Under the pieces are notes generated by a model, which was given only the letters and a program-made list of their open reading frames with translations, was not told where the DNA came from and ran no database searches. Shown in pieces: positions 5,851 through 22,616 of a DNA stretch of 64,000 nucleotides (positions are counted from its first letter, which is position 1; every line of letters starts with the position of its first letter). This DNA is from Patescibacteria group bacterium (GTDB lineage Bacteria > Patescibacteriota > Patescibacteriia > XYB2-FULL-38-15): positions 3,935 through 67,934 of the forward strand of contig JBGSRW010000010.1 of NCBI GenBank assembly GCA_041737355.1, read 5' to 3'. Made by a program: the position numbers and the translations under genes.

Positions 5851-5857
5851 AAATTTT

Positions 5858-6604
5858 ATGTCGACTATCTATATATTGTGGTTAAGACAACTTAAAAGAT
5901 ATTTGCGTTCGCGCTCAAGAATTATCGGGTCGCTCGGCCAGCCGCTTTTGTTTTTGGTGGCGCTCGGTTTCGGTTTCGGTCCGATTTACGAACGGGCCGG
6001 AGCGGGAAATTATCTGCAGTTTTTGGTTCCGGGAGTCGTCGCCATGAGCGTTCTTTTTACGGCGATGTTTTCGGGAATCGAAGTTATCTGGGACCGCCAG
6101 TTCGGATTTTTGAAAGAAACTCTGGTCGCCCCGGTTTCGCGCCTCCGGATTATGATCGGCCGGACCTTGGGCGGAGCAACGGTCGCGACTCTTCAGGGAG
6201 TGATCGTTTTTTTTCTTTCGTTTTTTGTCGGTTTCCGTCCGGCCTCATGGGCCTACGTTCCCCTGGCGTTTCTTTTTATGTTTTTGCTCGCGGCAATCTT
6301 TACCGCTCTCGGCACGGCTATCGCCTCAAAGATGTCGGACATGCACGGTTTCCAGCTCATCATGAATTTTCTGATCATGCCGATTTTTTTCCTTTCCGGG
6401 GCGCTTTTTCCTTTGGATGGCCTGCCTAAAATTATTGCTTCGGTCACATCGGCCAACCCGCTTTCCTACGGAGTCGATGCCCTGCGGGGGACGCTCAGCC
6501 TGCAATCCCATTTCGGTATCGGGACGGACGCGATTGTTCTTTCCGCCGCCGCAGTCGTTCTTTTAACCCTGGGCGGATATTTGTTTTCAAAAATTGAAGT
6601 GTAA
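5858..6604 (+). CDS. ABC-2 type transporter permease
   Basis: Six predicted TM helices. Directly follows the ATPase gene. Confidence 0.8.
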   Translation: MSTIYILWLRQLKRYLRSRSRIIGSLGQPLLFLVALGFGFGPIYERAGAGNYLQFLVPGVVAMSVLFTAMFSGIEVIWDRQFGFLKETLVAPVSRLRIMIGRTLGGATVATLQGVIVFFLSFFVGFRPASWAYVPLAFLFMFLLAAIFTALGTAIASKMSDMHGFQLIMNFLIMPIFFLSGALFPLDGLPKIIASVTSANPLSYGVDALRGTLSLQSHFGIGTDAIVLSAAAVVLLTLGGYLFSKIEV

Positions 6605-6614
6605 AATAAAAGTT

Positions 6615-7634
6615 ATGAAAAAAATATTCTTAATTTTTGCCGCAATTTTTTTTATAATTTTTTCGTGTATCGGTTTTCTGCCGCGGGTCTCCTTTGCCGC
6701 GGAAACGAGGCCGATTTTTTTTCCGACCGATCCGTCCGTAACTTTTACCGACAGTTTTGGCGATGCCCGTTACGGCCATTCGCACGAGGGGATTGATCTC
6801 ATGGGCCAAAAAATGATGCCGCTCTACTCGGCAATCGACGGGCAAGTCAGCTACATCGTTGATCCCGAAGCCGATTACGGCTATTCGGTTGTTTTGCGGG
6901 ACAGCGACGGCTACTCCTATCATTATTTGCATGTTAACAACGATACGCCGGGGACCGACGACGGTTTGGGCGGGACGGCCAATGCCTACGCCCCGGGGAT
7001 TGTCCACGGCGCAACGGTTAGCAAGGGCCAGCTTATCGGCTGGATGGGGGACAGCGGCAATGCCGAAAATGCCGGGCCTCATTTGCATTTTGAAATCCGC
7101 CTGCCCGACGGTACGGCGATCGATCCATACTTAAGTCTTGTGGCCGCCCGCTATCCCGGCAGTTACAGCCTTGCCGAGGCTCTTGCCGCAAGTCCCGACA
7201 TTAATGCCGACAAAAGTCTTTTAACCGGCCCCTCGCCGGCGCCCTGCGTTTCCGGCTCGAGACTGAAGACTTCGACCTCGACCGCGGTTTATTACTGCGG
7301 AGCCGACGGCCGGCGCTATCTTTTCCCGAACAACAAAACATATTTTACCTGGTATGCAAACTTTACCGGAGTTCTTACCATTACCTCCGCCCAACTTTCG
7401 GCGATTCCTTTCGGAGGCAACGTCACTTTTCGTCCGGGCGTGAAAATGGTAAAAATGCAGACCGATCCGAAAGTTTACGCCGTGGGGCAGGGCGGAGTTC
7501 TGCGCTGGGTAAAGTCCGATGAGACCGCTGTCGCCCTTTACGGAGCCGACTGGGCCAAGAAAATTGACGATGTTCCCGAAGCCTTTTTTACCAATTATGT
7601 CATCGGCGAGCCGGTTCTTTCGGTTCGTTTATAA
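6615..7634 (+). CDS. M23 family metallopeptidase (second paralog)
   Basis: Signal/TM N-terminus. HSHEGIDL and GPHLHFE motifs. ATG 6615 preferred over the TTG at 6594. Confidence 0.8.
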   Translation: MKKIFLIFAAIFFIIFSCIGFLPRVSFAAETRPIFFPTDPSVTFTDSFGDARYGHSHEGIDLMGQKMMPLYSAIDGQVSYIVDPEADYGYSVVLRDSDGYSYHYLHVNNDTPGTDDGLGGTANAYAPGIVHGATVSKGQLIGWMGDSGNAENAGPHLHFEIRLPDGTAIDPYLSLVAARYPGSYSLAEALAASPDINADKSLLTGPSPAPCVSGSRLKTSTSTAVYYCGADGRRYLFPNNKTYFTWYANFTGVLTITSAQLSAIPFGGNVTFRPGVKMVKMQTDPKVYAVGQGGVLRWVKSDETAVALYGADWAKKIDDVPEAFFTNYVIGEPVLSVRL

Positions 7635-8137: not shown

Positions 8138-8497
8138 ATGGATTCATCATACAGCTCGCGCTCTACCAAGCCGTTATACCGCAGCACCCAGATTGTCTGG
8201 TATATCGTCGGCCTCCTTGAAGTGCTTTTGGCGTTCAGGTTCGTTTTAAAACTTCTTGCCGCCAATCCCGCGGCCGGTTTTACCAGCTTTATTTACGCTG
8301 TCAGTTATATTTTTGCCGCGCCGTTCCTTGCCGTTTTCCGCGTCACAAAAGTTGAAGGAAGTATTTTCGAATGGACGACCCTTTTGGCCATGGCCGTTTA
8401 CGCGCTCGTTGCCTGGGGCGTTGTCAGGCTTTTGTTCATGAGCAAGACGGTCTCCACTCCGGAAGCCGCGGAAAAATTGAACGAAGAAAACAAGTAA
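8138..8497 (+). CDS. YggT-like small membrane protein
   Basis: Two or three TM helices. Resembles the YggT/Ycf19 fold. Confidence 0.5.
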   Translation: MDSSYSSRSTKPLYRSTQIVWYIVGLLEVLLAFRFVLKLLAANPAAGFTSFIYAVSYIFAAPFLAVFRVTKVEGSIFEWTTLLAMAVYALVAWGVVRLLFMSKTVSTPEAAEKLNEENK

Positions 8498-8525
8498 TTT
8501 TTTCAAAAGTTAAAAGACAAAATTT

Positions 8526-8774
8526 ATGGGAATTATTCTTTGGATTATTTTCGGGGGACTGGTCGGCTGGGTCGCCTCCATGATTATGAAGACCAATGCG
8601 CAGCAGGGCATTATCCTGAATGTCATCGTCGGCATTGTCGGCGCGGTATTGGGCGGCTGGATCATGAGCTTATTCGGTAAAAGCGGGGTGGGTACTTTTA
8701 ATTTGTACAGTTTCCTCGTGGCGCTGCTCGGAGCAATTGTCCTTGTCGCGATTGTGAAGGCCTTGAGGCGTTAA
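8526..8774 (+). CDS. GlsB/YeaQ/YmgE family stress-response membrane protein
   Basis: Gly-rich TM repeats GGLVGW...GIVGAVLGGWI. Confidence 0.7.
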   Translation: MGIILWIIFGGLVGWVASMIMKTNAQQGIILNVIVGIVGAVLGGWIMSLFGKSGVGTFNLYSFLVALLGAIVLVAIVKALRR

Positions 8775-8794
8775 AGATATAGAATAAATTAGAG

Positions 8795-8824
8795 GGCGCG
8801 GGGTATAATCCCCGCGCTTTTTGG
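8795..8824 (+). terminator. Rho-independent terminator, identical palindrome to the one at 7992
   Basis: ggcgcggggtataatccccgcgc followed by tttttgg. Confidence 0.8.
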
Positions 8825-8890
8825 TAAAAAAAAGGAGAGGGGCGCGGGGCGCTCCCTCTCGGGGGTTTGATGTTGTCCGGATGGGGCGGG

Positions 8891-9214
8891 CTAGTAGCGG
8901 ACGGTGCACTTCCGGCAGTCAGGAAGGACGGCCTTGGACATCGTGTCCATGATCGCCTCGACCTGGTGCCGGCGTGCCTCTTTGCGCGCCTGGAAGGCGT
9001 TCACGAGCTGGACCTTGAGGCCGGTCTGCTCCTCGTCCGGCACGTCCTGGAGTACGAGCATCGCGTCGAGGTGTCCGGCGCAGAAGGCGAGATCGACCGG
9101 CATCGGGCCGAGCGTGGCGACTTCCTTGCCGGACTTGCGGAGAATGACGTTGCATTCGCAGCCGCAGCCGCAGAAAAGAACCTCGATCGTGTAGGTCAAA
9201 AGTTCGATTCCCAT
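8891..9214 (-). CDS. Cys-rich hypothetical protein (CGCGCEC ... C...C..C)
   Basis: Internal Met with a GGAGGAG RBS. GC-rich. The upstream part of the annotated ORF has no RBS. Confidence 0.55.
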   Translation of the reverse strand: MGIELLTYTIEVLFCGCGCECNVILRKSGKEVATLGPMPVDLAFCAGHLDAMLVLQDVPDEEQTGLKVQLVNAFQARKEARRHQVEAIMDTMSKAVLPDCRKCTVRY

Positions 9215-9326
9215 CTTTTTTCTCCTCCTTCTTTTTCCGCCGGGGCTTTTCGCCCGGGCGGCTAATCCTAATTTCAGGATACCCCTTAATATATCATTTT
9301 TTCGGTCAATTGTCAACCCCCGCGCT

Positions 9327-9355
9327 TTGACTTTAAGCCAGGTTTTTGGGATAAT
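9327..9355 (+). promoter_or_regulatory. Sigma70-like promoter (TTGACT, 17 nt, GATAAT) for the defense-island operon
   Basis: Hexamers with 17-nt spacing, 36 nt upstream of the 9391 ATG. Confidence 0.55.
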
Positions 9356-9390: not shown

Positions 9391-12300
9391 ATGAATGGTC
9401 AATTCGTAAAAGAATATATAGTTACGGTTTCCGAAAAATACAAAACCGGCCAAGCCAAAGAGCACGCTTACCGTCCGGCGCTAGAAAAGTTGTTTCAAGA
9501 TATTACTGGTCTTGAGGTAATTAATGATCCAAAACAGAGCGAATATGGTGCGCCGGATTTTGTTTTTATAAAAGATAAACTCGCTTTGGCTTATGCGGAA
9601 GCTAAAGATGTCAAAGTGTCTCTTGACGAAATTGAAAAAAGCGAACAGGTCGTCAGATATTTTGGTTACTCGAACTTGATTTTAACCAATTATCTTGAAT
9701 TCAGATTTTTTCGCAATGGAGAAAAATATGGTGAACCAATAAAAATTGCCGAAATTATAGATAACAAAATAATACCGGCCGAAAGCAGCACTCATTTGCA
9801 GGATGAAATTGCGGAATTTATCGCTCAAGCTAAAGAACCGATAAAATCAGGCGCTTTGTTGGCAAAAGTTATGGCTGGAAAAGCCCGTCGTATTCGTGAT
9901 AATATCAGTGTTTTTTTGGCAAAGGATGGCCCCGAAAATCAAAGTTTGATGGATATTTACAATGTTATAAGAAAAATGCTTCTCCCGGATTTGGATTATG
10001 AGCGATTTGCGGATATGTATGCGCAAACCGTTGTTTATGGTTTGTTTGTCGCTCGATATCATGATGAATCACCAGGGACATTTTCCCGACAGGAGGCGCG
10101 CGATTTGATGCCGGCGTCAAATCCGTTTTTACGTGAATTTTTTAACCACATCGCCGGTCCATCATACGATCCGCGCATAGAATTTATTGTGAAGGAACTT
10201 TGTGAAGAATTCGGGCATGCCGATGTGTCAGCCATTGTCCATAATTATTATAAAACTGAAAAAGATAATAATCGCGATCCGATAATTCATTTCTATGAAG
10301 ATTTTTTGAAGGAGTATGATCCTAAATCGCGCATGAAATTAGGTGTTTTCTATACGCCATTGCCGGTTGCCCGTTTCATTGTACGTTCAGTAGATGAAAT
10401 TTTAAAAAAAGATTTTAAGTTAGCCGGGCTGTCTGATTCTTCTGAAATCGAAATAAAAAAACAAATCCAAAATAATAAAGTTAAAGCGACCGAACGTGTC
10501 CATAAGGTGCAAATTTTGGATCCCGCGACCGGGACAGGAACATTTCTCAATGAAGTTATTTCACTTGTCCATGAATCATTCGTCGGGCAAGAAGGCAGAT
10601 GGCCAAGCTATGTTCGAGAAGATTTTTTACCGCGCTTGCATGGTTTTGAATTGATGATGGCCTCTTATGTTATTGCGCATTTAAAACTTTCGTCGTCTTT
10701 CAAGGAAACAGGCGTGGATTTGGATGGTACATGGTTAGGCGTCTATCTCACAAATTCTTTGGAAAAAGCAAAAAAAGAAGACGATACTCTATTTGCCGGA
10801 TTGGGATTTGATAAGGCAATTACAGCTGAATCAAAGGCTGCTGGAAAGATAAAGACGGAGTTGCCAATTATGGTAGTGCTAGGGAACCCGCCTTATAGCG
10901 GAGTTTCGTCGAATGAAACGGAATATGCCAATAGCCTCGTGGAAAAATACAAAGTTGAACCAGGCGGAAAGCAAAAATTGCAAGAACGTAAACACTGGCT
11001 GAATGACGATTATGTAAAATTTATCGCCTTGGCCGAGAACATGGTTGAAAAAAACGGCGAAGGCATCGTGGGTTACATTACAAACCATGGCTATCTTGAC
11101 AATCAGACCTTCCGCGGCATGCGCTGGCATCTCATGGATACTTTTGATTCGATATATGTGTTCGATCTCCATGGAAATGCGAAGAAGCACGAAGTTTCGC
11201 CGGACGGCAGCAAGGATGAAAATGTATTTGATATCCAGCAAGGCGTGGCGATTATAATTGCCGTTAAGACAGGAGTGAAAAAGGCCGGAAACTTGGCAAA
11301 AGTGTATCGGGCTGATCTGTGGGGAAAGAGAGAGCATAAATTTGAACGGCTTAACGAACTTTCGATTGAAAACACAAAATGGCTATCGCTCAAACCTCGA
11401 ACGCCCTATTTATTTTTTGCGCCGGAAGGCTCGATGAAACTTGAGACTGAATATCAAATCGGATTTAGTATAAACGAACTTTTTGTTGAAAATAGCACCG
11501 GTATTGTAACTATGGGGGACGGTTTTATTATTGGCGAAGATAAAGAATCGCTTGAAAACAGAGTCGTGAATTTTTTACGCGATGATGATTCAGAAAATAT
11601 ACTGAAAGAAAACTTTAACCTAGGTAAAAATTACGCAAAGTGGATTATCGGCAACAAAAAAGATATCGTAGTTGATCATGATAAAATTACTACATTTTCT
11701 TATCGTCCGTTTGATGATAGATATACCTATTTTGATAACAAGCTTGTCTGGCGGCCGCGTACAAAGATTATGCGAAATTTTGTTAAAAAAAATAACATAG
11801 GGTTGATTGCAACAAGGCTTAATCGTCAGTTAAGTAGCGGTTATTTTTTCTTAACAAGTAAAATTGTAGATTTTCACATATTGGATAGCGCTGGAGATTC
11901 AACATCTGCTTTTCCACTTTATCTTTATTTTGAAGATGGCACAAAAAGTTCTAATCTTAAAAAAGAAATGGTATCAGAAATTGAAAAAATCGTCGGGGAT
12001 GTTGTACCCGAAAATATTTTCGATTATATCTATGCGGTTTTGCATTCGCCGAGTTATCGAGAAAAATACAAAGAGTTTTTGAAAATAGATTTTCCGCGCG
12101 TGCCATATCCGAAAAATGAGAAACAATTTTTCGCGTTAGCCAAGTTGGGCGAGGAGTTGCGGCATTTGCACTTGCTGGAAAGTCCAAAAGTTGAAAAATT
12201 TATCACTACTTATCCCGAGGCGGGAGAGAATTTGGTGGAGAAAGTCGTCTACAAAGACGGCAAAGTTTACATCAACGCTTCGCAATATTTTGGCGGCGTG

Positions 12301-12477
12301 CCGGAAGTCGCGTGGGATTTTTACATCGGCGGTTATCAGCCGGCGCAGAAATGGCTGAAAGATCGCAAAGGCCGCAAGCTCACGAATGCCGATATTGAAC
12401 ATTATCAGAAAATCATCGTGGCACTCGTTGAGACGGATAGAATAATGAAGGAAATCGACAAAAATATATCCATCTAA
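9391..12477 (+). CDS. Type IIG/IIL restriction-modification enzyme (MmeI-like): N-terminal PD-ExK nuclease fused to a gamma-class N6-adenine DNA methyltransferase and a target-recognition domain
   Basis: PD...EAK motif (APDFVFIK...AEAKD) near the N-terminus. Methyltransferase motif I ILDPATGTGTFL. Motif IV VVLGNPPYSG. 1028 aa. Low GC. Confidence 0.8.
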   Translation: MNGQFVKEYIVTVSEKYKTGQAKEHAYRPALEKLFQDITGLEVINDPKQSEYGAPDFVFIKDKLALAYAEAKDVKVSLDEIEKSEQVVRYFGYSNLILTNYLEFRFFRNGEKYGEPIKIAEIIDNKIIPAESSTHLQDEIAEFIAQAKEPIKSGALLAKVMAGKARRIRDNISVFLAKDGPENQSLMDIYNVIRKMLLPDLDYERFADMYAQTVVYGLFVARYHDESPGTFSRQEARDLMPASNPFLREFFNHIAGPSYDPRIEFIVKELCEEFGHADVSAIVHNYYKTEKDNNRDPIIHFYEDFLKEYDPKSRMKLGVFYTPLPVARFIVRSVDEILKKDFKLAGLSDSSEIEIKKQIQNNKVKATERVHKVQILDPATGTGTFLNEVISLVHESFVGQEGRWPSYVREDFLPRLHGFELMMASYVIAHLKLSSSFKETGVDLDGTWLGVYLTNSLEKAKKEDDTLFAGLGFDKAITAESKAAGKIKTELPIMVVLGNPPYSGVSSNETEYANSLVEKYKVEPGGKQKLQERKHWLNDDYVKFIALAENMVEKNGEGIVGYITNHGYLDNQTFRGMRWHLMDTFDSIYVFDLHGNAKKHEVSPDGSKDENVFDIQQGVAIIIAVKTGVKKAGNLAKVYRADLWGKREHKFERLNELSIENTKWLSLKPRTPYLFFAPEGSMKLETEYQIGFSINELFVENSTGIVTMGDGFIIGEDKESLENRVVNFLRDDDSENILKENFNLGKNYAKWIIGNKKDIVVDHDKITTFSYRPFDDRYTYFDNKLVWRPRTKIMRNFVKKNNIGLIATRLNRQLSSGYFFLTSKIVDFHILDSAGDSTSAFPLYLYFEDGTKSSNLKKEMVSEIEKIVGDVVPENIFDYIYAVLHSPSYREKYKEFLKIDFPRVPYPKNEKQFFALAKLGEELRHLHLLESPKVEKFITTYPEAGENLVEKVVYKDGKVYINASQYFGGVPEVAWDFYIGGYQPAQKWLKDRKGRKLTNADIEHYQKIIVALVETDRIMKEIDKNISI

Positions 12478-12478
12478 T

Positions 12479-12895
12479 ATGTACGAAGAAAATGGCAACG
12501 TAATAAATATAAAAGCAGCTAGGTTGAGCGCTGATCCCAGGATAGTCGGATTATTTACAAAGGATAAAAGATTGATAGAAAAAGTTATTTATTGTGTTTT
12601 CTATCCAAAAAAAGAGTTGCATGTTTATCGGGAGAGTTCGGAAGAAAAAGGTGAATATAGTTGCGAGATTTATGATTTTGAAGATGTGGTTCCAAAATTT
12701 AGGGAAAAATTAGGTGAAAAATTTGTCAGAGAAGATGGTGTCGAGAGCCTAGAACAAAATCAGCTCATCAAAAAATTTTTTATTGCGGGCATTAAATTAT
12801 TCAGTTATGAAAATATTACAGAAGAGGATAGAAAAATAATTGAGGAAATTTTTATTTCCGCAAAAAGAAAAGTTGATGAGAGAATTAAAGGGTAA
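12479..12895 (+). CDS. Hypothetical protein (138 aa) in the defense operon
   Basis: Starts 2 nt after the stop of the type IIG enzyme gene. No recognizable motif. Confidence 0.5.
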   Translation: MYEENGNVINIKAARLSADPRIVGLFTKDKRLIEKVIYCVFYPKKELHVYRESSEEKGEYSCEIYDFEDVVPKFREKLGEKFVREDGVESLEQNQLIKKFFIAGIKLFSYENITEEDRKIIEEIFISAKRKVDERIKG

Positions 12896-12919
12896 TTTAA
12901 TTTTTTTTGAAATAAATTA

Positions 12920-14338
12920 ATGGAAATAGACTTTGGCACAATTGCTGATAAAATATCGTACGACAAATACGAAGATATTGACAGCAAGATAAGAGATGAT
13001 TTGGGTTTGGACCAGGCCATGGACTTTATATCCAACAAGATTGCTCCCCAGGTTAATACGAGATTATTAAACGTCGCCTACCTGCCCTATCTTTTGTCCG
13101 GAGTTGATTTCGCCTCTAACCAGGTTAAAATTTATCAGCAAAATAATAAAATAAAGGATCGCGCTCAATTGAGAAGGCGATTTTTATTTTGGCTTGACTT
13201 GTTCGAGTTCTGCTTGGCCTGGACTTTCAAAGAAAATAATGAAAAATCTTTTATTGGAATGCAAAAAAATCAATTTGAAAAAAATATTTTTTTAGAATTT
13301 TTAAATAACCTGGCTAATACTGATCTAAAAAAAGATCTATCCTTTCGGGGTAAATTTTTAACTAGCCGGCTTTCTTACGCTTTTGACAGGCATAAATATA
13401 CTATGCAAATGTTGGGTTTAGTTGAGCCGATGCAGGGTACGCATAGCGTTTATCAGGTCAGTAATGTTGATTGTTTGAAAGATTCTCCACTTTATAAAAC
13501 CATGAGATACCTTAATTACGAGTTATCTCCCAACGAGGTCGTAAAAAGTTTTTATAAAGCGTATTTTGAAAAAAATAAAAAAAATATAACCTTAAAAAAT
13601 AAAAAATTTGGCCGAAAACTCTGGGACGATATTTTATTTGACGAAGTGACACTTAAACAATTTTTGCCAGAATATTTGCCGGCCATAGCCATGAGAGATA
13701 TTAGTTACGATAAGATTATCGCCAATACAATTGAACTCAAGAAAAAAATAGAAACCAGCAAGGGAGAAATTTTTTCTCGAGAGCTTATTTCCAGGGATGA
13801 GTATAAAAAGCTTTTGGGAAAGATTGACTTTTCAGCCAAAAAACTTGATCCGAATGTAGATTTATTTTTAGCTCTGCTCAGGATTCTCAATTATTTTTAT
13901 TATACGCCCAGGCAGATGCTGAATGAAATCAACAGGATGATAAAAAACGATAATTACGCGACCCTGGATAAAGTTAAAAATAGGCTGATAAAAACATATG
14001 AATGGCAGGAGAAAAGCCGGGATTTTAACGATGGGAAAATGACAAAATTTCTCGGGAAAATAGCTGAGATAGATGATACTTTTGGAAGTGTCTTAGATTT
14101 CTTGAAAAGTTTTTATAAAAAAGAAAACCAGCATGATCCGTTAAATTTGATAAAGGTTTTAGGAGAAAGAGTTTCGCGGGTTAAGGGATTAGGTGGACAA
14201 GTTTATTCAGTGTCCAATAACCAGATATCTATTAATGACCAGGAATATAGGGAAAAATTTAAAATTGCTACCACGATTGAGCCTTATTATTCGCGCTTAG
14301 GCATTTTAAAAATGATTTATCGGCAATGCCATGAATAA
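12920..14338 (+). CDS. Hypothetical protein (472 aa) in the defense operon
   Basis: Long ORF with island-typical low GC. No recognizable motif. Overlaps the next gene by 8 nt. Confidence 0.6.
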   Translation: MEIDFGTIADKISYDKYEDIDSKIRDDLGLDQAMDFISNKIAPQVNTRLLNVAYLPYLLSGVDFASNQVKIYQQNNKIKDRAQLRRRFLFWLDLFEFCLAWTFKENNEKSFIGMQKNQFEKNIFLEFLNNLANTDLKKDLSFRGKFLTSRLSYAFDRHKYTMQMLGLVEPMQGTHSVYQVSNVDCLKDSPLYKTMRYLNYELSPNEVVKSFYKAYFEKNKKNITLKNKKFGRKLWDDILFDEVTLKQFLPEYLPAIAMRDISYDKIIANTIELKKKIETSKGEIFSRELISRDEYKKLLGKIDFSAKKLDPNVDLFLALLRILNYFYYTPRQMLNEINRMIKNDNYATLDKVKNRLIKTYEWQEKSRDFNDGKMTKFLGKIAEIDDTFGSVLDFLKSFYKKENQHDPLNLIKVLGERVSRVKGLGGQVYSVSNNQISINDQEYREKFKIATTIEPYYSRLGILKMIYRQCHE

Positions 14339-16100
14339 TTTTTCTAAAAGCAGCAAGGTTAAAGACATTTTTAAAAAGCCCAAAGGCTTTGAGCTGAAAG
14401 AGGCAATTGTCTTTACCTATTCCCTGGAAAGCAGTTTTTTGTATGATGCCTTTTTGCCTTTTTTATGCAATAACAATACCGGCGAATGGATCAGGGATAG
14501 GTCTAACCATCTGAAAGTTTTTATAAACTCCAGCAGCCTGTCGGGCGAATTGCCTTTAAATTTATTAGGCAATATAAATCAGATTAAGACAGCTGAAAAT
14601 TCTTCTTTCCATCCTAAAATTTATTTTTTTAAATATCGAAAAGATAAAAAAGTTTTTTGTCAGATGGTTCTCGGCTCTTTCAACCTGACGGCAGACGGCT
14701 TTAATCAGAATAATGAATTCTACGCCTCGTTGTCAGGCGGGAAGAAGAACAAGTCAGGGCAGAAGCAAAAGCAGAGCTTGATAAAGTTTGTCGAGTTAGC
14801 TTTAAACGCTGCACTGGCGCTCGCTCCCAGCGAACGGAGAGAAAATCTGGCAAGAATAAAATCAATCATTGAATTTTTGGATTGGCCTGATGGGGTAGAA
14901 TTTTATTTTACCGCACCTAAATATTCAGGAAAGGAGATGGGTTTTTCGGGAAATAAATGTATTATGGTTTCTCCCTTTTGGGACGCCGCTGCCATCAACC
15001 GTTTGTCGAAGAATGCCAAACAAGTGTCATTATATTATAATTATCTATCCGAGGCCGACGCAGCGCCTTTTGAGCCGAAAAAAATAGAAGGATCAAATAA
15101 ATTTTCCTGTTTCCAGCTGAACGAAAAAAAATTAGACAAAAAGAAGCTGCACGGGAAATTATATTATTTTGGTGACGAAAAGTTCGGAAATATTTATCTT
15201 GGTTCCGCAAATTGCACGAGCAGGGCGGTTATCAGGGGGAAAAATTATGAAGCCGGCCTAGTTTTTAAGGCTAATTATCAACATTTGAAAAACTGGCTAG
15301 ACGATAAATTTAAAAAAGTTGAATTTCCCCAAAATTATTATCAAGATAAGCTAGCTGAAGACAAAAATAAAAAAGATTATGACAATGTTTATAATATGCT
15401 GGAGGCCGGGTTTTTTGTCCAAAACTCAAAAATGGCTGTAGTTATTAAAATCGAAAAACCCGAGATGTTAAAAAAATATAAGCTTACTTGTCATGACCGG
15501 CCCATTGATGATTCGCCCTTCCAAATCCCAATAGGGGAGACAAAAAATTTACCAGGCTCAATTGAAGTATTGATAAGTGAAACTTCCTACCAGTTACCAA
15601 TATCAGGTACGTATGAGCAAGAGCGGGGACCAATTAAATATCTGGATTATGAGGGCTGGTATAACTTCAAAAAAAATTACATTTCCTTGAAGTGTAATTC
15701 GCCGGAGGATCTGTTGGATTTGTATCTGGATAATATTGCCATTGATGATTTTTTTGAATTTGGCGGAGAGATGATGTTTAACAGCAATTGGCGCGAAAGA
15801 AAATTTCCTTACAAAAAATTAATGGAGCTACTTTATGGCAGCCCTGTTTTGGCAAAAATTAATTTATCTAGCAGATGCCTCAATTTTATTGAAGGCTTAG
15901 CAGCCCGGGACGATTTTGGCGAAAGAAAGAGAGGAGTTTTTTTTGCTGATTTTGAAAATTATGACAATGAAAAAGAATACCGCGATGCCTTTTTTGTTTA
16001 CTGGAAAAAATATCTGAACGAGAATAAAAAATCCCTTGACCGTGAATCGCGGATAAAAGTAAAAAAGCTGCTTGTAAAAATAGAGGCCTTGAGAAAATAA
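14331..16100 (+). CDS. Phospholipase D-family nuclease with two HKD-like motifs
   Basis: HPKIYFF...LGSFNLT and HGKLYYFGDE...LGSANCT, each HxK...GSxN, separated by about 180 aa. About 290-aa C-terminal extension. Confidence 0.7.
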   Translation: MNNFSKSSKVKDIFKKPKGFELKEAIVFTYSLESSFLYDAFLPFLCNNNTGEWIRDRSNHLKVFINSSSLSGELPLNLLGNINQIKTAENSSFHPKIYFFKYRKDKKVFCQMVLGSFNLTADGFNQNNEFYASLSGGKKNKSGQKQKQSLIKFVELALNAALALAPSERRENLARIKSIIEFLDWPDGVEFYFTAPKYSGKEMGFSGNKCIMVSPFWDAAAINRLSKNAKQVSLYYNYLSEADAAPFEPKKIEGSNKFSCFQLNEKKLDKKKLHGKLYYFGDEKFGNIYLGSANCTSRAVIRGKNYEAGLVFKANYQHLKNWLDDKFKKVEFPQNYYQDKLAEDKNKKDYDNVYNMLEAGFFVQNSKMAVVIKIEKPEMLKKYKLTCHDRPIDDSPFQIPIGETKNLPGSIEVLISETSYQLPISGTYEQERGPIKYLDYEGWYNFKKNYISLKCNSPEDLLDLYLDNIAIDDFFEFGGEMMFNSNWRERKFPYKKLMELLYGSPVLAKINLSSRCLNFIEGLAARDDFGERKRGVFFADFENYDNEKEYRDAFFVYWKKYLNENKKSLDRESRIKVKKLLVKIEALRK

Positions 16101-16109
16101 TTTTTTTAA

Positions 16110-18635
16110 ATGGAGCTATTTTCTTTCCAAAAAAAGACAGCTAAGAGGGCGATGGATCTTATGTTTGCTAAGTCTAATCCGACTGATGCGGTTTTTATAA
16201 TTGATGAAGTTGGTCTGGGAAAAACTAAAGAGGCGCTGGAAATCCTCAGAAGAAGCAGGGAGAAACTAAGGGGCAAGTTTAAAGCAATCATCATTACCCC
16301 CTCAAAAAGGCTGATTAGCCAATGGAAAAAGGAAAGCCGGGAATTTAATTCCGAAAAACAAATTTTTAACATTGAGCCAAGCGAGGCGACAAGAAAATTA
16401 TATGAAAGCGGAAAAATAACCCTTATCAACGCCGCCTTGAACTACGACCAAAAAATCAATCTAGCATTTTCCAGCGGCAATGAATTGAAAAATTTCAGGT
16501 CAACTAATTATCTGGAGCGCGAGTATATAATGTCTTTTTTTTCAAAAAGAAAAAGGGGCAAAAAATTTTTCAGGAAGCTGGGCGTTTCTCAAAATCAAAT
16601 TCCGGATGTTTACAATAAATCATTCCGAAAAATAAGCCGTAAAGACATTTCTTTGAGTGAGGCAATAAAAAGCATTAAAGATCAAACAAGTATTTCAGAG
16701 TTTAAGAAAAGATGGTTGGAAAATATAGGGGAAAGGCATAAATTTACTTCCATTGTAGTTGATGAATTCCATAATTATGTTAATTTAGCGGCTAAAAAAA
16801 ATTTAGATAAAATTTCTGGTGAGGAAAAAGAGGTCGATTATGATATCCAAATCTGGGACGAATTTTTCAGGTTGCAGGCGGATGACGGAGCTAGGAAGGT
16901 TAAAAAAATTTACTTATCAGCTACGCCGTTCAAGCCAATCAGATTGAACATCGGTCCTGAAAATCAAAATGACCCGATTTCTTATATCTTGAATGGGCTG
17001 AGTAATTCTTTCACCTATGGAGACCAGGAAAAGCTTGGCAAAAAGATTTTGAATTATAATGAGAATGTTTTAGAGATAAGAAAAAAAATAGCTTATCTAG
17101 CGAATAATCTAGGCAAGAAGGATATTAACGGAAAAGATATAGCAGAAGTTTTAAAAGATAGGGAGTTAATTGAGCTTAAGAGTAAAATAACAATAACTAA
17201 GCGGGAGATTGAAAAAATATTGAGCCGCTATTTATTGAGAAACGAAAGGAAACAAAAGAAATTTACAAGGATAACGATTGCTAAAACAATTAAAATTTCT
17301 AAAGAATTTGATAGATATATAAATCTTTTTGAAGCAATGTATCGAAGTAGATCAGTAGATCAAAGGTATGACGGCCTGCAAACCTATTTTACTTCCGGCG
17401 ATTTTTTTGACCGTTCGTATAAGCGTGAACATTATAAGGCGCTGGAAAATCTAAAGAAGAAAAGTAAATATCTTAAAAAATCTGATTTTAGAAATTATTT
17501 AAAAACGCACCCTAAATTAGAAGAGCTTAAAAAAATAATAAGAGAAGATTTGAAATGGTTCAAGTCTAAAGGCAACCCTCCTTGTTGGTTAGACGTTTAT
17601 AATCCCGAGGGGTATTCTAAGGCGCTTGTTTTTTGCGGCTATAGAGGTACACAGAATTATTTGGAAAAAGAAACAAAAAAGGAATATGAACATAAAGTTA
17701 AAAAAATATTTAAACCCTCAAATGTTTTGAAGAATACAATTGAAAAAATGTTTAAAAATATTACCGGCTATGATGGTATCGAGGAAAAACAGAGGGATAT
17801 CGTAGAAAATTTCTACGGATATCTGCCTTCGTATATTAAGAGATGGGGTTTAAGAAAAAGCGAGAGAGTTACAGCCAGGCAATTAAAGCGGTATATCAAA
17901 AAAAATAAATTGGAAGAAGTATTAAAATATTATTTTGAACGTGTTTGCGATAAAAAGCAGGAAAAATTTTTCGAAAACATTAAGGCCATTACAGAATGGA
18001 CACTGATGCAAAGCAGGCACGGCGTAATTGCCAAGTACGGAGAAATGTCAGGCGGCAAAGGAAAAAGAAGCGGGGTTGAGCGCATAGAGGATCTGCGGAC
18101 TGCCTTTAACTCCCCATTTTATCCCTACATTATGATTTCTACTAATGCTGGTTCGGAGGGGATTAGTCTGCATTCTTATTGCCGCAATGTTATCCATTAC
18201 GAACAGGATTGGATGCCAGCAACAATTGAACAAAGAAGTGGCAGGGTAGATAGGATAAATTCACTGGCGGCAAGGTTAAGAATAGAAGAGATTAAAGATA
18301 AAAATGATTTGGAAAAATTAAAGCATAGTCCCCACGCCGATCATTTACTAGAGCCAGGCAAGCCACAAGTTGAAGTTTGCGATCATTACATGCATAATAA
18401 AGATGTAAAAATAAATATATACCGGCTGGTTATGGAAGCAACCATAGACGAATATATGTATAATAGGGAGAGGGAACGTGCATTATGGGTTGATTTGTTT
18501 GTTGGCGGAGAAGATGTTAACAAAATGTTGGATTCAAGCGTCGGTTTGAATTTCAATATTTCTGATGAGAGCGTTAAATTGGAGTTAGATAAATTGATAG
18601 AGGAAATAAAAATAAAAGTAGGAGAAATAAAATAA
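16110..18635 (+). CDS. SNF2-family (SF2) helicase-like ATPase
   Basis: Motif I IIDEVGLGKT, motif II VVDEFHNY, motif III LSATPF, motif V STNAGSEGISL, motif VI DWMPATIEQRSGRVDRI (SNF2-like DWNP...Q..R..R). Confidence 0.75.
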   Translation: MELFSFQKKTAKRAMDLMFAKSNPTDAVFIIDEVGLGKTKEALEILRRSREKLRGKFKAIIITPSKRLISQWKKESREFNSEKQIFNIEPSEATRKLYESGKITLINAALNYDQKINLAFSSGNELKNFRSTNYLEREYIMSFFSKRKRGKKFFRKLGVSQNQIPDVYNKSFRKISRKDISLSEAIKSIKDQTSISEFKKRWLENIGERHKFTSIVVDEFHNYVNLAAKKNLDKISGEEKEVDYDIQIWDEFFRLQADDGARKVKKIYLSATPFKPIRLNIGPENQNDPISYILNGLSNSFTYGDQEKLGKKILNYNENVLEIRKKIAYLANNLGKKDINGKDIAEVLKDRELIELKSKITITKREIEKILSRYLLRNERKQKKFTRITIAKTIKISKEFDRYINLFEAMYRSRSVDQRYDGLQTYFTSGDFFDRSYKREHYKALENLKKKSKYLKKSDFRNYLKTHPKLEELKKIIREDLKWFKSKGNPPCWLDVYNPEGYSKALVFCGYRGTQNYLEKETKKEYEHKVKKIFKPSNVLKNTIEKMFKNITGYDGIEEKQRDIVENFYGYLPSYIKRWGLRKSERVTARQLKRYIKKNKLEEVLKYYFERVCDKKQEKFFENIKAITEWTLMQSRHGVIAKYGEMSGGKGKRSGVERIEDLRTAFNSPFYPYIMISTNAGSEGISLHSYCRNVIHYEQDWMPATIEQRSGRVDRINSLAARLRIEEIKDKNDLEKLKHSPHADHLLEPGKPQVEVCDHYMHNKDVKINIYRLVMEATIDEYMYNRERERALWVDLFVGGEDVNKMLDSSVGLNFNISDESVKLELDKLIEEIKIKVGEIK

Positions 18636-18642
18636 TTTATAT

Positions 18643-19173
18643 TTGATAAATATTTTAAACGATCGGATTTTTAGTATGGATGTTAATAAAGAAAGAAAAG
18701 TTTGCCGGGATTATTTGGTGGCGCGTAAGAAATTTTTAAAATTTGCTAATAAAAGTGAATTATTGCGGGGCAATGATAATATTATTGGCAGCCGAATTGG
18801 GGAATTTATTGCCTGGGAATTTTTGGATAAACAAAAAAGGAAGCCGAAGATGAATGAGCGAGCTAATGTTGAAGGTCATGATATGGTTTGTAAGGATGGC
18901 AAAAAAATTTCCGTTAAACTAATTAGTCCGGAGAACAAAACGGGAAGAACGACAAGGTTGGGTAAAAATTGGGATGAATTTTTATTAATTATTCTCGGCG
19001 ATAATTATAAAGTAGCTAAAATTGGTCATATCACCCGAAGCCAATTTAATAAAGATAAAAAAATAAGGAGTGCTAACCCGTATACAACTCGATCGATGTT
19101 AGGGGAAAAGGGTTTGTTTGTAAGATCTAGGGGGCGTGTTTATAAAAAGGAAGAAGTTAGTTGGTTAATATAG
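18643..19173 (+). CDS. Hypothetical protein (176 aa), last gene of the defense operon
   Basis: TTG start at 18643 with an alternative ATG at 18676. Basic protein. Weak D...VK pattern. Confidence 0.45.
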   Translation: MINILNDRIFSMDVNKERKVCRDYLVARKKFLKFANKSELLRGNDNIIGSRIGEFIAWEFLDKQKRKPKMNERANVEGHDMVCKDGKKISVKLISPENKTGRTTRLGKNWDEFLLIILGDNYKVAKIGHITRSQFNKDKKIRSANPYTTRSMLGEKGLFVRSRGRVYKKEEVSWLI

Positions 19174-19206
19174 CTGGGAGAAGAGAAAATAAAATTGAAA
19201 TAAATT

Positions 19207-19545
19207 ATGGATCCAGCGGTTCGGACAATGGTAAACAAAATGCTTATTGGTTTTTGGCCGATTTTTGTTTGTCTGATAGGAATTTTAGCTATTTTGTTAA
19301 TAGATATATATGTATACCGGTTGGCGAAACCGTGGATAGCCAAGAAAGATAAGATGTTGGTTAGTTTGCTTTTTAGATTTTTGGGAGTGATTGGGTTTTT
19401 TATGGTGCTCGGATTATTGATTTCTTCCCTTGCGGATGCGTGGCAATCATTTTATTGGTATGGAGCGGGATTAGTTGCGGTAATTTTGGGATTTGCATTG
19501 GTGGCGATAGTTTTGAAATATAAATTTTTGAGAAATAAAAAATAA
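19207..19545 (+). CDS. Small membrane protein
   Basis: Three predicted TM helices. Confidence 0.5.
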   Translation: MDPAVRTMVNKMLIGFWPIFVCLIGILAILLIDIYVYRLAKPWIAKKDKMLVSLLFRFLGVIGFFMVLGLLISSLADAWQSFYWYGAGLVAVILGFALVAIVLKYKFLRNKK

Positions 19546-19565
19546 ATATTTTAAGCGAAAAATTT

Positions 19566-19913
19566 GTGGATAAGAAAATTGCCGGATATATTGAGAAACA
19601 AAAATCTCCCCAAAAGGAAATTTTAGAGGAAGTAAGGAAAATAATCTTGAAAACGCTTCCCGGCTGCGGCGAGGAGGCAAAATGGGGAGTTATTGCCTTT
19701 GCCGGCGGAAAATTTTATATTGCCGCCCTCCGGGATTCGGTCAATATCGGTTTTGCCATCGGCGGTTTGGATAAAAAAGAAATCGGCCTTTTTTCTGGCG
19801 GCGGAAAAACCATGAGGCACATTAAGATCCGGACAAAAAAAGAAATTGACGAGAAAAAGTTAAGGAAACTCTTAAAACTCGTTTATAAAAAGGCCAAATG
19901 CCAGCCTTGTTAA
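19566..19913 (+). CDS. DUF1801 (YdhG-like) domain protein
   Basis: GTG start. Pattern typical of DUF1801 (GYIEKQKSPQKEILEEVRKIIL...GVIAF...FYIAA). Confidence 0.55.
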   Translation: MDKKIAGYIEKQKSPQKEILEEVRKIILKTLPGCGEEAKWGVIAFAGGKFYIAALRDSVNIGFAIGGLDKKEIGLFSGGGKTMRHIKIRTKKEIDEKKLRKLLKLVYKKAKCQPC

Positions 19914-19929
19914 ATTTTAAAATAATTTT

Positions 19930-20151
19930 ATGGACGAACAATTTTTAGTTCAAAACGCGTGGGTTATCGGGCTGGCCGTACTCTGGACCCTGCCCTGGAA
20001 AGGAATGGCCCTGTGGAAAGCCGCCAGAAACAGCGATAAATGGTGGTTCATCGCCCTCATGCTGATTAACACCTTGGGCTTGCTGGAAATTCTCTATATT
20101 TTCATTTTCAGCAAAAAGAAAAGCGAACCGACGCAACCGCAAAACGTGTAG
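19930..20151 (+). CDS. Small membrane protein
   Basis: Two TM helices. Confidence 0.5.
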   Translation: MDEQFLVQNAWVIGLAVLWTLPWKGMALWKAARNSDKWWFIALMLINTLGLLEILYIFIFSKKKSEPTQPQNV

Positions 20152-20185
20152 CGTGAAGCGTAATAAATTTGATAAACCGTAAACT

Positions 20186-20476
20186 ATGTTTGAAAATTTT
20201 GCCTGGTCAACGAGGGAATCGGTTTTGTCCGTTTTTTGGGCGGTTTATGTGAGCTGCCTTTTGGCCAATATTTATTATTTCTGGAAAAACGAGACCTGGA
20301 AGATCCCGGGGGCGATGCTCCGGCTGGGCAGGCCGCTTGTTCTCTACGGTTTGCTTGCCGTCATGCTCGTTACGGCGCCGGCCGAGATGGAAAAATTTTA
20401 CGGCTACATGATGCTCATCTTTTTTCTTTTTGTCCTCCCGATTATTGACGTAATCAGGCTCGTGATAAAAAAATAG
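20186..20476 (+). CDS. Small membrane protein
   Basis: Three TM helices. Confidence 0.5.
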   Translation: MFENFAWSTRESVLSVFWAVYVSCLLANIYYFWKNETWKIPGAMLRLGRPLVLYGLLAVMLVTAPAEMEKFYGYMMLIFFLFVLPIIDVIRLVIKK

Positions 20477-20477
20477 A

Positions 20478-20557
20478 CCCGTCGACAAGTATTACACGCT
20501 TTGCCCTCGTTCCCGCGCTCGGGCGCGGAGAACTCGGGACACATTATAAAAATATAA
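20478..20557 (+). repeat. Conserved intergenic element, copy A (CGACAAGTATTA...CGTTCCCGCG...CGCGGAGAACTCGGGACACATTATAAAAA)
   Basis: About 80 nt sharing blocks with 28862-29004. Ends directly at a start codon. Confidence 0.6.
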
Positions 20558-21456: not shown

Positions 21457-21474
21457 TAAATAAAACTTAAACCT

Positions 21475-22329: not shown

Positions 22330-22334
22330 AAACC

Positions 22335-22589: not shown

Positions 22590-22616
22590 AAATTTATTCC
22601 TAAAATAAAAAAACTT

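What the first reader, a model, noticed from the sequence alone, without database searches (positions are those of the whole stretch)
12479..14338. Two domain-less proteins (138 aa and 472 aa) between the restriction-modification enzyme and the PLD nuclease
Both have island-typical low GC, are translationally coupled to their neighbours, and lack any motif I can recognize. They show no Walker boxes, Zn ribbon, HKD or PD-ExK. In defense operons such genes often encode sensors or specificity subunits. The 472-aa protein sits where DISARM would place DrmA/DrmB but shows no helicase or DUF1998 features.
Basis: seen in the sequence. Interest (0 to 1): 0.6.

Follow-up and report, generated by a model that had tools for sequence, protein, structure and literature searches.

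The report
Divergent Azaca-like defence operon subunit
The 472-aa protein is most likely the hard-to-recognise third subunit (ZacA position) of a very divergent Azaca-type nuclease–helicase anti-phage system, while the 138-aa protein is a lineage-specific orphan that travels with the neighbouring restriction-modification enzyme. This makes the locus a rare variant of a known kind of system, not a new one.

Summary
Both ORFs are real and at the stated coordinates, with 31-34% GC. No Pfam, NCBIfam, PADLOC, PHROGs or PDB sequence search hits either. Each has exactly one homologue in billions of public proteins, so both are conserved genes (138-aa pair dN/dS 0.13; 472-aa pair 30% identity, E 1e-63).

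They belong to two separable modules. In a related genome (L002) the type IIG enzyme and the 138-aa gene are kept, but about 11.9 kb holding the 472-aa, PLD and helicase genes is absent. In the only other 472-family locus (L001), the gene again overlaps the start of a homologous PLD gene.

The PLD and helicase are distant ZacB and ZacC of the Azaca system (PADLOC 4e-30 and 4e-45), not DISARM components. True Azaca loci read ZacA (DUF6361, about 350-430 aa), then an overlapping PLD, then a helicase, which is the layout seen here.

Profile-profile comparison aligns residues 20-134 of the 472-aa family with the N-terminus of ZacA. Probability is 52% full-length and 85% (E 6e-6) for the N-terminal part alone. 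The score is 40.9, against a maximum of 25.4 in 220 shuffles. HMMER sees nothing, and both AlphaFold runs failed.

Verdict: a new, extremely rare variant of Azaca whose A subunit escapes current models. The function of the 138-aa protein remains unknown.

The parts
9327..9355 (+). Sigma-70-like promoter candidate (TTGACT-17-GATAAT with an extended TG) upstream of the type IIG gene. It is the only strong candidate ahead of the gene string.
   Evidence: No terminator-like site lies in any intergenic gap between 12.3 and 19 kb on the + strand. This is a consensus match only.
9391..12477 (+). Type IIG restriction-modification enzyme (1028 aa), with an N6-adenine methyltransferase domain and a Type_ISP_C specificity domain. 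This is module 1.
   Evidence: Pfam Type_ISP_C 4e-83, N6_Mtase and Eco57I. PADLOC REase_MTase_IIG 5e-291.
12479..12895 (+). 138-aa mildly acidic orphan protein (pI 5.7), starting 1 nt after the type IIG stop codon. It is a companion of module 1 and its function is unknown.
   Evidence: No family hit. Its single homologue, P0005 (66% identity, dN/dS 0.13), also lies directly after a homologous type IIG gene in L002, where no Azaca-like genes follow.
12920..14338 (+). 472-aa basic protein (pI 9.2, net charge +14), predicted all-alpha. It is the A subunit (ZacA position) of the Azaca-like triad, module 2.
   Evidence: Only one homologue exists among 1.84e9 representative proteins (P0003, E 5e-54). 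That homologue also overlaps a homologous PLD gene. There are no family hits. The position and gene overlap match ZacA in true Azaca loci.
12977..13321 (+). Residues ~20-134 of the 472-aa protein: the region with remote similarity to the N-terminus of ZacA (DUF6361).
   Evidence: hhalign gives Prob 52%, E 1.4e-4 full-length and Prob 85%, E 6e-6 for N-termini only. Three independent ZacA subclades give the same region. In 220 shuffles the maximum score was 25.4, against 40.85 observed; the reversed query scored 12.5. MAFFT reproduces the register, with 10 (window) and 14 (P0003) of 29 highly conserved ZacA columns identical.
14331..16100 (+). ZacB-like PLD-family nuclease (589 aa) with two HxK motifs (H94, H274) and GSxNxT motifs (115, 291).
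   Evidence: PADLOC ZacB 4e-30 over residues 10-357; Pfam PLDc_2 and RE_NgoFVII. BLASTP to true ZacB gives 1e-9 and 6e-7 over ~310 aa.
16110..18635 (+). ZacC-like SF2 helicase (841 aa) with Walker A GLGKT (35) and Walker B DEFH (218).
   Evidence: PADLOC ZacC 4e-45 is the best hit, followed by PDC-M27C 6e-26, BrxHI 2e-19 and DrmD 1.5e-18. Pfam Helicase_C and ResIII. Motifs.
18643..19173 (+). Very basic (pI 10.1) small ORF of unknown function, starting 7 nt after the helicase stop codon. It is 176 aa from the TTG, or 165 aa from the ATG at 18676. It may be a fourth gene of module 2.
   Evidence: Only sub-threshold hits were found (PADLOC mREase_II 0.0066; DUF6998 0.03). There is no plasmid or PDB match.

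Best explanation
The interval holds parts of two adjacent but separable defence modules.

Module 2 (472-aa protein, 589-aa PLD nuclease, 841-aa SF2 helicase) is a highly divergent relative of the Azaca system (ZacA-ZacB-ZacC).
- The 472-aa protein is the ZacA-equivalent A subunit.
- It is made in fixed proportion with the nuclease, because the two genes overlap by 8 nt.
- By analogy with Bacillus Azaca, it is inferred to assemble with the nuclease and helicase into a three-protein complex in which ATP-dependent DNA cleavage needs all three parts.
- Its N-terminal ~115 residues are probably homologous to the conserved N-terminus of ZacA/DUF6361, and are inferred to be the part that docks to the B/C partners.
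- The basic, fast-evolving C-terminal ~330 residues are inferred to contact DNA or sense the invader, which would explain why the family has drifted out of reach of existing models.

Module 1 is the type IIG restriction-modification enzyme plus the 138-aa protein. The 138-aa protein is a lineage-specific, purifying-selected small companion of that enzyme. My best guess, at low confidence, is that it modulates the enzyme's activity or expression. It is not part of the Azaca-like machine.

Status of each step:
- Shown: gene anatomy, conservation, synteny, intact catalytic motifs, and statistical support for the N-terminal similarity.
- Taken from the literature: the three-subunit requirement.
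- Inferred: the docking and sensing roles, and any role for the 138-aa protein.
For: 1. The partners are Azaca-like. ZacB scores 4e-30 and ZacC 4e-45, the best PADLOC hits for each protein. Both HxK/GSxN motif pairs and Walker A/B are intact.

2. The architecture matches. In 13 plasmid Azaca loci, a 350-430-aa DUF6361 gene directly precedes a PLD gene of about 590-620 aa, mostly overlapping it by 1-11 nt. In the two loci read through to the third gene (L005, L006), a helicase of ~1050 aa follows. The window has 472 aa, an 8-nt overlap, then 589 aa and 841 aa.

3. The linkage is conserved. The only other 472-family member (P0003, 30% identity, E 1e-63) overlaps by 14 nt a PLD gene that is 39% identical to the window PLD.

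4. Remote homology is supported.
- hhalign of the 472 family against 13 ZacA sequences gives Prob 52%, E 1.4e-4, for residues 20-134 against ZacA 25-128.
- N-terminal parts alone give Prob 85%, E 6e-6.
- Three disjoint ZacA subclades and a 92-sequence profile give the same region.
- The observed score of 40.85 compares with maxima of 24.0 and 25.4 in 100 global and 120 local column shuffles, and 12.5 for the reversed query.
- Controls against PDC-M27A gave Prob 0.1-0.8%.
- MAFFT independently reproduces the register.

5. All A proteins compared are basic, with pI 8.4-9.5.

6. In BmAzaca, ZacA, ZacB and ZacC are all required for cleavage of phage T4 DNA, and the nuclease site and Walker A are essential (bioRxiv 10.1101/2025.07.10.664194).

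7. The modules are separable. L002, a relative with 72-82% nt identity in housekeeping genes, has the type IIG 3' end plus the 138-aa homologue. These are followed directly by the gene that lies at 24810 in the window, so window 12896-24809 is absent.

8. The 138-aa pair has dN/dS 0.13.
Against: - Pfam DUF6361 and PADLOC ZacA do not hit the 472-aa protein or P0003, even at E<=10.
- hmmsearch with my own ZacA HMMs gives 0-3 bits, no better than reversed or PDC-M27A controls.
- Only about a quarter of the protein shows similarity. The remaining ~330 residues have none.
- hhalign probability drops to 31% with a larger but clade-biased ZacA profile.
- Several invariant ZacA residues (F47, S51, Y59, W122) are not conserved.
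- AlphaFold failed twice (pLDDT 33-34), so there is no structural confirmation.
- The window ZacB and ZacC are themselves distant from the family (about 20-35% identity in patches; helicase 841 aa against ~1050 aa).
- In BmAzaca, mutating conserved ZacA residues had no effect, so even ZacA's own role is undefined.
- For the 138-aa protein there is no functional evidence at all, and only two loci support its linkage to the type IIG enzyme.
Confidence: 0.65

Rival explanations
1. The 472-aa protein is an analogous but non-homologous replacement for ZacA. On this reading it is a third, unrelated A family, like PDC-M27A, recruited to the same PLD-plus-helicase chassis, and the N-terminal resemblance is convergent or spurious.
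For: There is no HMMER-level similarity. About 70% of the protein has no detectable similarity. PDC-M27 shows that the same three-gene layout exists with an A protein unrelated to ZacA by hhalign.
Against: The hhalign signal is specific to the N-terminus, and both proteins match at their N-terminal ends. It reproduces across independent ZacA subclades and lies far above the shuffle and reversal nulls. MAFFT finds the same motif order: RDxLG, P..R, E..L, IG, Y/F..L.
Confidence: 0.2
2. All five or six co-directional genes form one integrated, DISARM-like, methylation-linked system. The type IIG methyltransferase would mark self DNA, and the 138-aa and 472-aa proteins would stand in for DrmA/DrmB as sensors.
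For: There is one promoter-like site upstream of the type IIG gene and no intergenic terminator. Spacing is tight and low GC is uniform from 9.4 to 19.9 kb. The helicase and PLD give weak DrmD and DrmC hits.
Against: There is no DUF1998 and no DrmA. DrmC/DrmD scores are far below ZacB/ZacC and far below NCBIfam cutoffs (12 against 133 bits; 77 against 610 bits). L002 keeps the type IIG gene and the 138-aa gene without the rest. In L001 the sequence upstream of the 472-homologue resembles neither the type IIG enzyme nor the 138-aa protein. Azaca loci sit beside unrelated R-M genes elsewhere too (L005, L011), which fits ordinary defence-island clustering.
Confidence: 0.08
3. One or both ORFs are functionless island cargo, or a small toxin/antitoxin-like or anti-restriction-type gene unrelated to either neighbour. 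This applies mainly to the 138-aa ORF.
For: The phylogenetic distribution is extremely narrow: singleton clusters with one homologue each. Neither protein has a recognisable domain.
Against: Purifying selection acts on the 138-aa pair (dN/dS 0.13). The 472-aa pair is conserved over its full length at 30% identity with many invariant motifs. The neighbour is conserved in both cases.
Confidence: 0.07

Closest known systems
Azaca anti-phage system (ZacA/DUF6361 PF19888 + ZacB PLD nuclease + ZacC SF2 helicase; named by Millman et al. 2022, from my own knowledge; BmAzaca biochemistry in bioRxiv 10.1101/2025.07.10.664194)
   Same: - The three-gene order A, then PLD, then helicase, with the A stop overlapping the PLD start.
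- A PLD with two HxK/GSxN motifs and an SF2 helicase with Walker A/B, both best matched by the ZacB and ZacC models.
- An A protein of similar size, basic, with an N-terminal RD[DE]LG...P...R / E..L..K..E..IG / Y..L signature.
   Different: - The A protein fails the DUF6361 and ZacA HMMs and shares no detectable similarity beyond residue ~135.
- It carries an ~18-residue insertion (RRRFLFWLDLFEFC) within the conserved block.
- The helicase is about 200 aa shorter.
- B and C are only distant family members.
- An extra basic 165-176-aa ORF follows the helicase.
- PADLOC- or DefenseFinder-type rules that require all three components would probably not call this locus. This is an inference.
PDC-M27 (PADLOC candidate system: M27A unknown ~460 aa + M27B PLD + M27C helicase), e.g. 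Vibrio nigripulchritudo plasmid (L004) and Rhodoferax antarcticus plasmid (L019)
   Same: The layout and sizes are identical (461/668/874 aa), with a 4-8-nt A/B overlap. The helicase shares similarity (M27C 6e-26).
   Different: The 472-aa protein shows no similarity to M27A (hhalign Prob 0.1%). The window PLD does not hit M27B. ZacB and ZacC are the better matches.
DISARM (DrmA, DrmB/DUF1998, DrmC PLD, plus DrmD/DrmE and a methyltransferase)
   Same: A PLD nuclease, an SNF2-like helicase and an adjacent adenine methyltransferase lie in one gene string.
   Different: There is no DUF1998 and no DrmA. The PLD is a large two-HxK ZacB type rather than a short DrmC. DrmC and DrmD scores are far below their cutoffs. 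The methyltransferase is a self-contained type IIG R-M enzyme that occurs without the other genes in a relative.

Membership tests
Azaca (ZacABC) | ZacB: PLD-family nuclease with two HxK catalytic motifs | tested here: met
   PADLOC ZacB 4e-30 (residues 10-357 against profile 10-388). HxK at 94 and 274 with GSxNxT at 115 and 291, the same spacing as in true ZacB. BLASTP to ZacB of L005 and L006 gives 1e-9 and 6e-7. It is a distant member.
Azaca (ZacABC) | ZacC: SF2 helicase with Walker A/B | tested here: met
   PADLOC ZacC 4e-45 is the top hit. GLGKT at 35 and DEFH at 218. The protein is 841 aa against ~1050 aa, and only the motor regions align by BLASTP.
Azaca (ZacABC) | ZacA: protein matching DUF6361 (PF19888) or the PADLOC ZacA model | tested here: not met
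   Neither the 472-aa protein nor P0003 is hit at E<=10. True ZacAs score 50-712 bits. My own ZacA HMMs give 0-3 bits, equal to controls.
Azaca (ZacABC) | Remote (profile-profile) homology of the A protein to ZacA | tested here: inconclusive
   hhalign Prob 52% (E 1.4e-4) full-length, 85% (E 6e-6) N-terminal only, and 31% with the 92-sequence profile. The score of 40.85 exceeds the shuffle maximum of 25.4. Only residues ~20-134 are covered, and no structural check was possible.
Azaca (ZacABC) | Gene order A-B-C on one strand, with A and B overlapping or abutting | tested here: met
   The window has an 8-nt overlap and L001 has 14 nt. Most Azaca plasmid loci overlap by 1-11 nt.
Azaca (ZacABC) | Anti-phage activity, with DNA cleavage requiring all three proteins | not testable with these tools
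   Known for BmAzaca only.
DISARM | DrmB (DUF1998) and DrmA helicase core pair | tested here: not met
   No DUF1998 hit appears in any ORF of the string. The DrmA hit on the helicase (3.6e-13) covers only the generic helicase C region and is weaker than ZacC.
DISARM | DrmC: short PLD nuclease | tested here: not met
   PADLOC DrmC 1.1e-4. NCBIfam DISARM_DrmC_I 12.2 bits against a cutoff of 133.
PDC-M27 | M27A and M27B model matches | tested here: not met
   No M27A or M27B hit. hhalign of the 472 family against M27A gives Prob 0.1%. Only the helicase hits M27C (6e-26), below ZacC.

The most novel reading that the evidence does not exclude
Azaca, PDC-M27 and this locus may be branches of one wider class of defence systems built on a PLD nuclease and an SF2 helicase. 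In that class the ~400-470-aa basic A subunit would be the hypervariable, invader-sensing or specificity module: a conserved N-terminal docking motif with a free-evolving C-terminus. The 472-aa family, with two members among 1.84 billion representative proteins, would then define a third A type with a new target specificity. The 138-aa protein would be a previously unseen regulator of a type IIG restriction enzyme.
Probability: 0.25. Interest if true: 0.55.

Novelty: new variant of a known kind. Interest (0 to 1): 0.38.

Why it matters
**Annotation.** Rule-based annotators such as PADLOC and DefenseFinder require all three Azaca components. A locus like this one would probably be left as two orphan hits plus hypothetical proteins. 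Recognising it widens the sequence space of Azaca.

**Mechanism.** ZacA is essential for Azaca nuclease activity in vitro, but its role is unknown. A relative that keeps only the N-terminal ~115-residue signature and has replaced everything else points to which part is the conserved core. That core is a candidate interface. The rest is free to vary and is a candidate sensor or specificity region. This gives a concrete basis for designing truncations and chimeras.

**Modularity.** The comparison with a related genome shows that apparent five-gene 'operons' in defence islands can be juxtaposed independent modules.

The finding is incremental, not surprising.

Tried and rejected
- **Close DNA matches:** none in plasmids or E. 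coli genomes.
- **Word-indexed protein search:** it found only the query itself for the 472-aa protein and for the PLD. The exhaustive representative search was needed to find P0003.
- **More 472-family members:** scans of genome contigs (twice), metagenome contigs and viral contigs found none. tblastn of the PLD and the 165-aa ORF against plasmids, and of the 472- and 138-aa proteins against phages, also found nothing.
- **AlphaFold2:** the 472-aa protein alone and with the 2-sequence alignment both gave pLDDT 33-34. No fold search was attempted, because such models give meaningless matches.
- **PDB sequence searches:** searches with the 472-aa, 138-aa, PLD and 165-aa proteins and with the ZacA and 472-family profiles gave nothing meaningful.
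- **hmmsearch with ZacA HMMs:** not significant.
- **Extended hhalign alignment** (mact 0.05) beyond residue ~140: low confidence, so not used. The apparent C-terminal echoes (R-x4-K; YRW against YRQ) were judged unsupported.
- **The 62-aa fragment upstream in L001:** its weak BLAST similarity to the 138-aa protein (E 0.01) was rejected after 12 of 100 shuffles reached the same hhalign score. It also does not match the type IIG C-terminus.
- **B. thuringiensis plasmid helicase hit (L003):** an unrelated context.
- **DISARM assignment:** rejected (see the membership test).
- **Source organism:** the window is chromosomal (valS, argS, groEL, nusA, ppsA) and comes from an uncultured-type assembly. 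The organism could not be named.
Full report
**1. Observation**

The window carries a co-directional string of genes on the + strand:
- 9391-12477 (1028 aa)
- 12479-12895 (138 aa)
- 12920-14338 (472 aa)
- 14331-16100 (589 aa)
- 16110-18635 (841 aa)
- 18643-19173 (176 aa)

The string is 31-40% GC, against 53% to the left and 47% to the right. Both target ORFs are intact. An open frame of 472 codons at this composition has chance probability about 7e-18.

The type IIG stop and the 138-aa ATG are 1 nt apart. The 472-aa gene starts 24 nt after the 138-aa stop. Its last 8 nt overlap the ATG of the PLD gene.

Neither protein hits Pfam, NCBIfam, PADLOC or PHROGs, even at E<=10, and neither matches a PDB sequence. 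Simple motif scans are negative.

**2. Both are real, conserved, extremely rare genes**

An exhaustive HMMER search of 1.84 billion representative proteins found one relative of the 472-aa protein. This is P0003 (492 aa, E 5e-54; BLASTP 30% identity over the full length, E 1e-63), and it shares many invariant blocks.

The 138-aa protein has one relative, P0005 (66% identity). The codon alignment gives dN/dS = 0.13, close to the 0.125 of a neighbouring housekeeping methyltransferase.

All of these are singleton clusters. Further scans of genome, metagenome, viral, plasmid and phage collections found no more relatives.

**3. The neighbours identify the system**

The 1028-aa protein is a type IIG restriction-modification enzyme (Type_ISP_C 4e-83; PADLOC REase_MTase_IIG 5e-291).

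The 589-aa PLD protein is best matched by ZacB (4e-30), and the 841-aa helicase by ZacC (4e-45). Matches to PDC-M27C, BrxH, DrmD and DpdE are weaker. The DrmC hit is only 1e-4, and 12 bits against a cutoff of 133 in NCBIfam.

ZacABC is the Azaca defence system, made of a DUF6361 protein, a PLD nuclease and an SF2 helicase. In the Bacillus system all three proteins are needed to cleave phage T4 DNA. The nuclease site and Walker A are essential, and the role of ZacA is unknown (bioRxiv 10.1101/2025.07.10.664194).

The window PLD keeps both HxK/GSxNxT motif pairs, and the helicase keeps Walker A/B.

**4. Position and synteny**

I recovered true Azaca loci from plasmids. Each has a DUF6361 gene of about 350-430 aa directly followed by a PLD gene of about 590-620 aa, mostly overlapping it by 1-11 nt. 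In the two loci read through to the third gene (L005, L006), a helicase of ~1050 aa follows. The window's 472/589/841-aa trio with an 8-nt A/B overlap has this layout.

In the only other locus of the 472 family (L001, a 2-kb contig), the homologue overlaps by 14 nt a PLD gene that is 39% identical to the window PLD.

A third system with the same layout, PADLOC's candidate PDC-M27, was found on Vibrio and Rhodoferax plasmids.

**5. Is the 472-aa protein a ZacA homologue?**

*Evidence against, at the sequence-to-profile level*
- Pfam DUF6361 and PADLOC ZacA do not match.
- HMMs I built from 13 or 92 ZacA sequences give 0-3 bits, no better than reversed or PDC-M27A controls.
- True but divergent ZacAs themselves fade to 50-80 bits and match only the N-terminal ~250 positions of the Pfam model. 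The family evolves fast.

*Evidence for, at the profile-to-profile level*
- hhalign aligns residues 20-134 of the 472 family to ZacA 25-128 with Prob 52% and E 1.4e-4.
- With only the N-terminal parts compared, it gives Prob 85% and E 6e-6.
- Three disjoint ZacA subclades each pick the same region (scores 27-34).
- A 92-sequence ZacA profile built from metagenome loci gives the same register at Prob 31%.

*Null distributions*
- 100 global column shuffles gave a maximum score of 24.0 and a mean of 15.5.
- 120 local 10-column shuffles gave a maximum of 25.4, a mean of 15.7 and sd 2.8.
- The reversed query scored 12.5.
- The observed score is 40.85.
- The PDC-M27A controls gave Prob 0.1-0.8%.

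*Independent alignment*
- A MAFFT alignment reproduces the register.
- The shared blocks are R-D-[DE]-L-G, then P...R, then E..L..K..E..[FV]-I-G, then [YF]-[LW]..L.
- The window protein is identical at 10 of the 29 most conserved ZacA columns, and P0003 at 14.
- The 472 family carries an ~18-residue insertion within this region.

*Limits*
- Beyond residue ~140 nothing is detectable.
- AlphaFold2 failed with one and with two sequences (pLDDT 33-34), so no fold comparison was possible.
- No ZacA structure could be found by sequence in the PDB.

I conclude that N-terminal homology is probable (about 0.6). Functional equivalence as the A subunit of the triad is more probable (about 0.75-0.8).

**6. 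The 138-aa protein belongs to a different module**

Its only homologue lies on L002, directly after the C-terminus of a homologous type IIG enzyme (83% identity over the last 46 residues).

L002 comes from a relative of the window's organism, with 72-82% nt identity in shared housekeeping genes. It is collinear with the window:
- L002 1-571 corresponds to window 12330-12889.
- L002 688-1425 corresponds to window 24819-25556.

Window 12896-24809 therefore has no counterpart there. That stretch holds the Azaca-like trio, the 176-aa ORF, and the DUF1801, GIY-YIG and YgjP-like genes.

So type IIG + 138 and 472 + PLD + helicase are separable units. Conversely, the gene upstream of the 472-homologue in L001 resembles neither the 138-aa protein nor the type IIG enzyme.

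The 138-aa protein is mildly acidic (pI 5.7). It is not a split-off end of the type IIG enzyme, because the PADLOC profile is matched to within 22 positions of its end. It has no detectable relatives in phages or the PDB.

Its function is unknown. My low-confidence guess (about 0.3) is that it modulates the type IIG enzyme.

**7. Mechanism proposed**

- *Shown:* overlapping genes point to coupled synthesis of the A protein and the PLD. The catalytic motifs are intact. The A protein is basic (+14), as are ZacA and M27A.
- *From the literature:* Azaca works as a three-protein, ATP-dependent DNA-degrading complex.
- *Inferred:* the conserved N-terminal domain of the 472-aa protein docks to the PLD and/or helicase. 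The divergent C-terminal two-thirds binds DNA or senses the invader, and so licenses the nuclease.

A promoter-like site lies only upstream of the type IIG gene, and no intergenic terminator follows. The two modules may therefore be co-transcribed here even though they are evolutionarily separable.

**8. Comparison and novelty**

The locus works like Azaca and shares two of its three defining components. The third fails the family's own models and is related at best through a quarter of its length. I therefore do not file it as a canonical member. I call it a new variant of a known kind.

PDC-M27 shares the architecture but not the A or B families.

Interest is moderate to low. The result is a useful extension of Azaca diversity, a handle on which part of ZacA matters, and a clean example of module juxtaposition. 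It is not a surprise to specialists.

Noticed in passing
window 18643-19173 (ATG at 18676): A very basic (pI 10.1) ORF of 165-176 aa starts 7 nt after the helicase stop codon. It has no homologues in plasmids or the PDB, and only sub-threshold hits (PADLOC methyl-directed REase 0.0066; DUF6998 0.03). It could be a fourth gene of the Azaca-like module. The canonical Azaca loci I examined (L005, L006) have no such gene.
   Followed up: partly
window 12896-24809 vs L002 578-687: A related genome (L002) lacks this ~11.9-kb stretch between the 138-aa gene and the SAM-methyltransferase gene (window 24810-25556). The stretch combines the low-GC Azaca-like block (to ~20 kb) with normal-GC genes: DUF5652, GIY-YIG 20558-20800, YgjP-like metallopeptidase 20797-21456, Cdd1/HHH 22335-22589 and TspO-like 22617-23411. 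I found no flanking repeats or integrase, and I did not resolve whether this is an insertion or a deletion.
   Followed up: partly
L004 1584-7630 (Vibrio nigripulchritudo plasmid); L019 5974-11952 (Rhodoferax antarcticus plasmid): The PADLOC candidate system PDC-M27 has the same three-gene layout as Azaca: an unknown basic protein of ~460 aa, an overlapping PLD, then an SNF2-like helicase. Its A protein starts with a D-P-L-G ... S-S-I-S-N-D-V-R-N-Y stretch that loosely resembles ZacA's D-E-L-G ... S-T-I-Q-T-R-x-R-Y. The hhalign support is not significant (score 20, Prob 0.5%).
   Followed up: partly
L001 1-189: The only other 472-family locus has a different, unidentified gene upstream. Its stop overlaps the A-gene start (ATGA). 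Its last 62 residues match nothing in the window.
   Followed up: partly
L009 (Halomarina sp. BND7 plasmid) 1501-4176: A canonical ZacA-ZacB pair sits on a haloarchaeal plasmid next to an HNH endonuclease gene, so Azaca is present in archaea as well.
   Followed up: no
L010 (Caballeronia sp. Lep1P3 plasmid) 1501-2739: Here ZacA is annotated as three short ORFs (70, 137 and 89 aa) upstream of an intact ZacB. It is apparently a disrupted ZacA gene.
   Followed up: no
L005 10163-16321; L011 1-1044: Canonical Azaca loci also lie next to restriction-modification genes: an Eco57I-type methylase and an N-6 methylase in L005, and a type I S subunit in L011. The adjacency of R-M genes and Azaca seen in the window recurs, at least as defence-island clustering.
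   Followed up: no
window 979-2271 and L002 3636-6206: Both the window and its relative encode cell-wall hydrolase domains (Peptidase_M23 or CHAP) fused to repeated MopE-type metal-binding motifs. Together with DUF5652 and UU173-like proteins and anaerobe-type genes in L002 (rubrerythrin, desulfoferrodoxin), this hints at an uncultured anaerobic lineage. The organism was not identified.
   Followed up: no
window 6594-7634 and 8138-9265: Just upstream of the island lie an ABC-2 transporter pair (5053-6604), a second M23 peptidase (TTG start) and several small membrane-type ORFs (Transgly_assoc at 8526-8774). GC falls from about 0.50 to 0.43 at roughly 9.0 kb, which marks the left edge of the low-GC block.
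   Followed up: no
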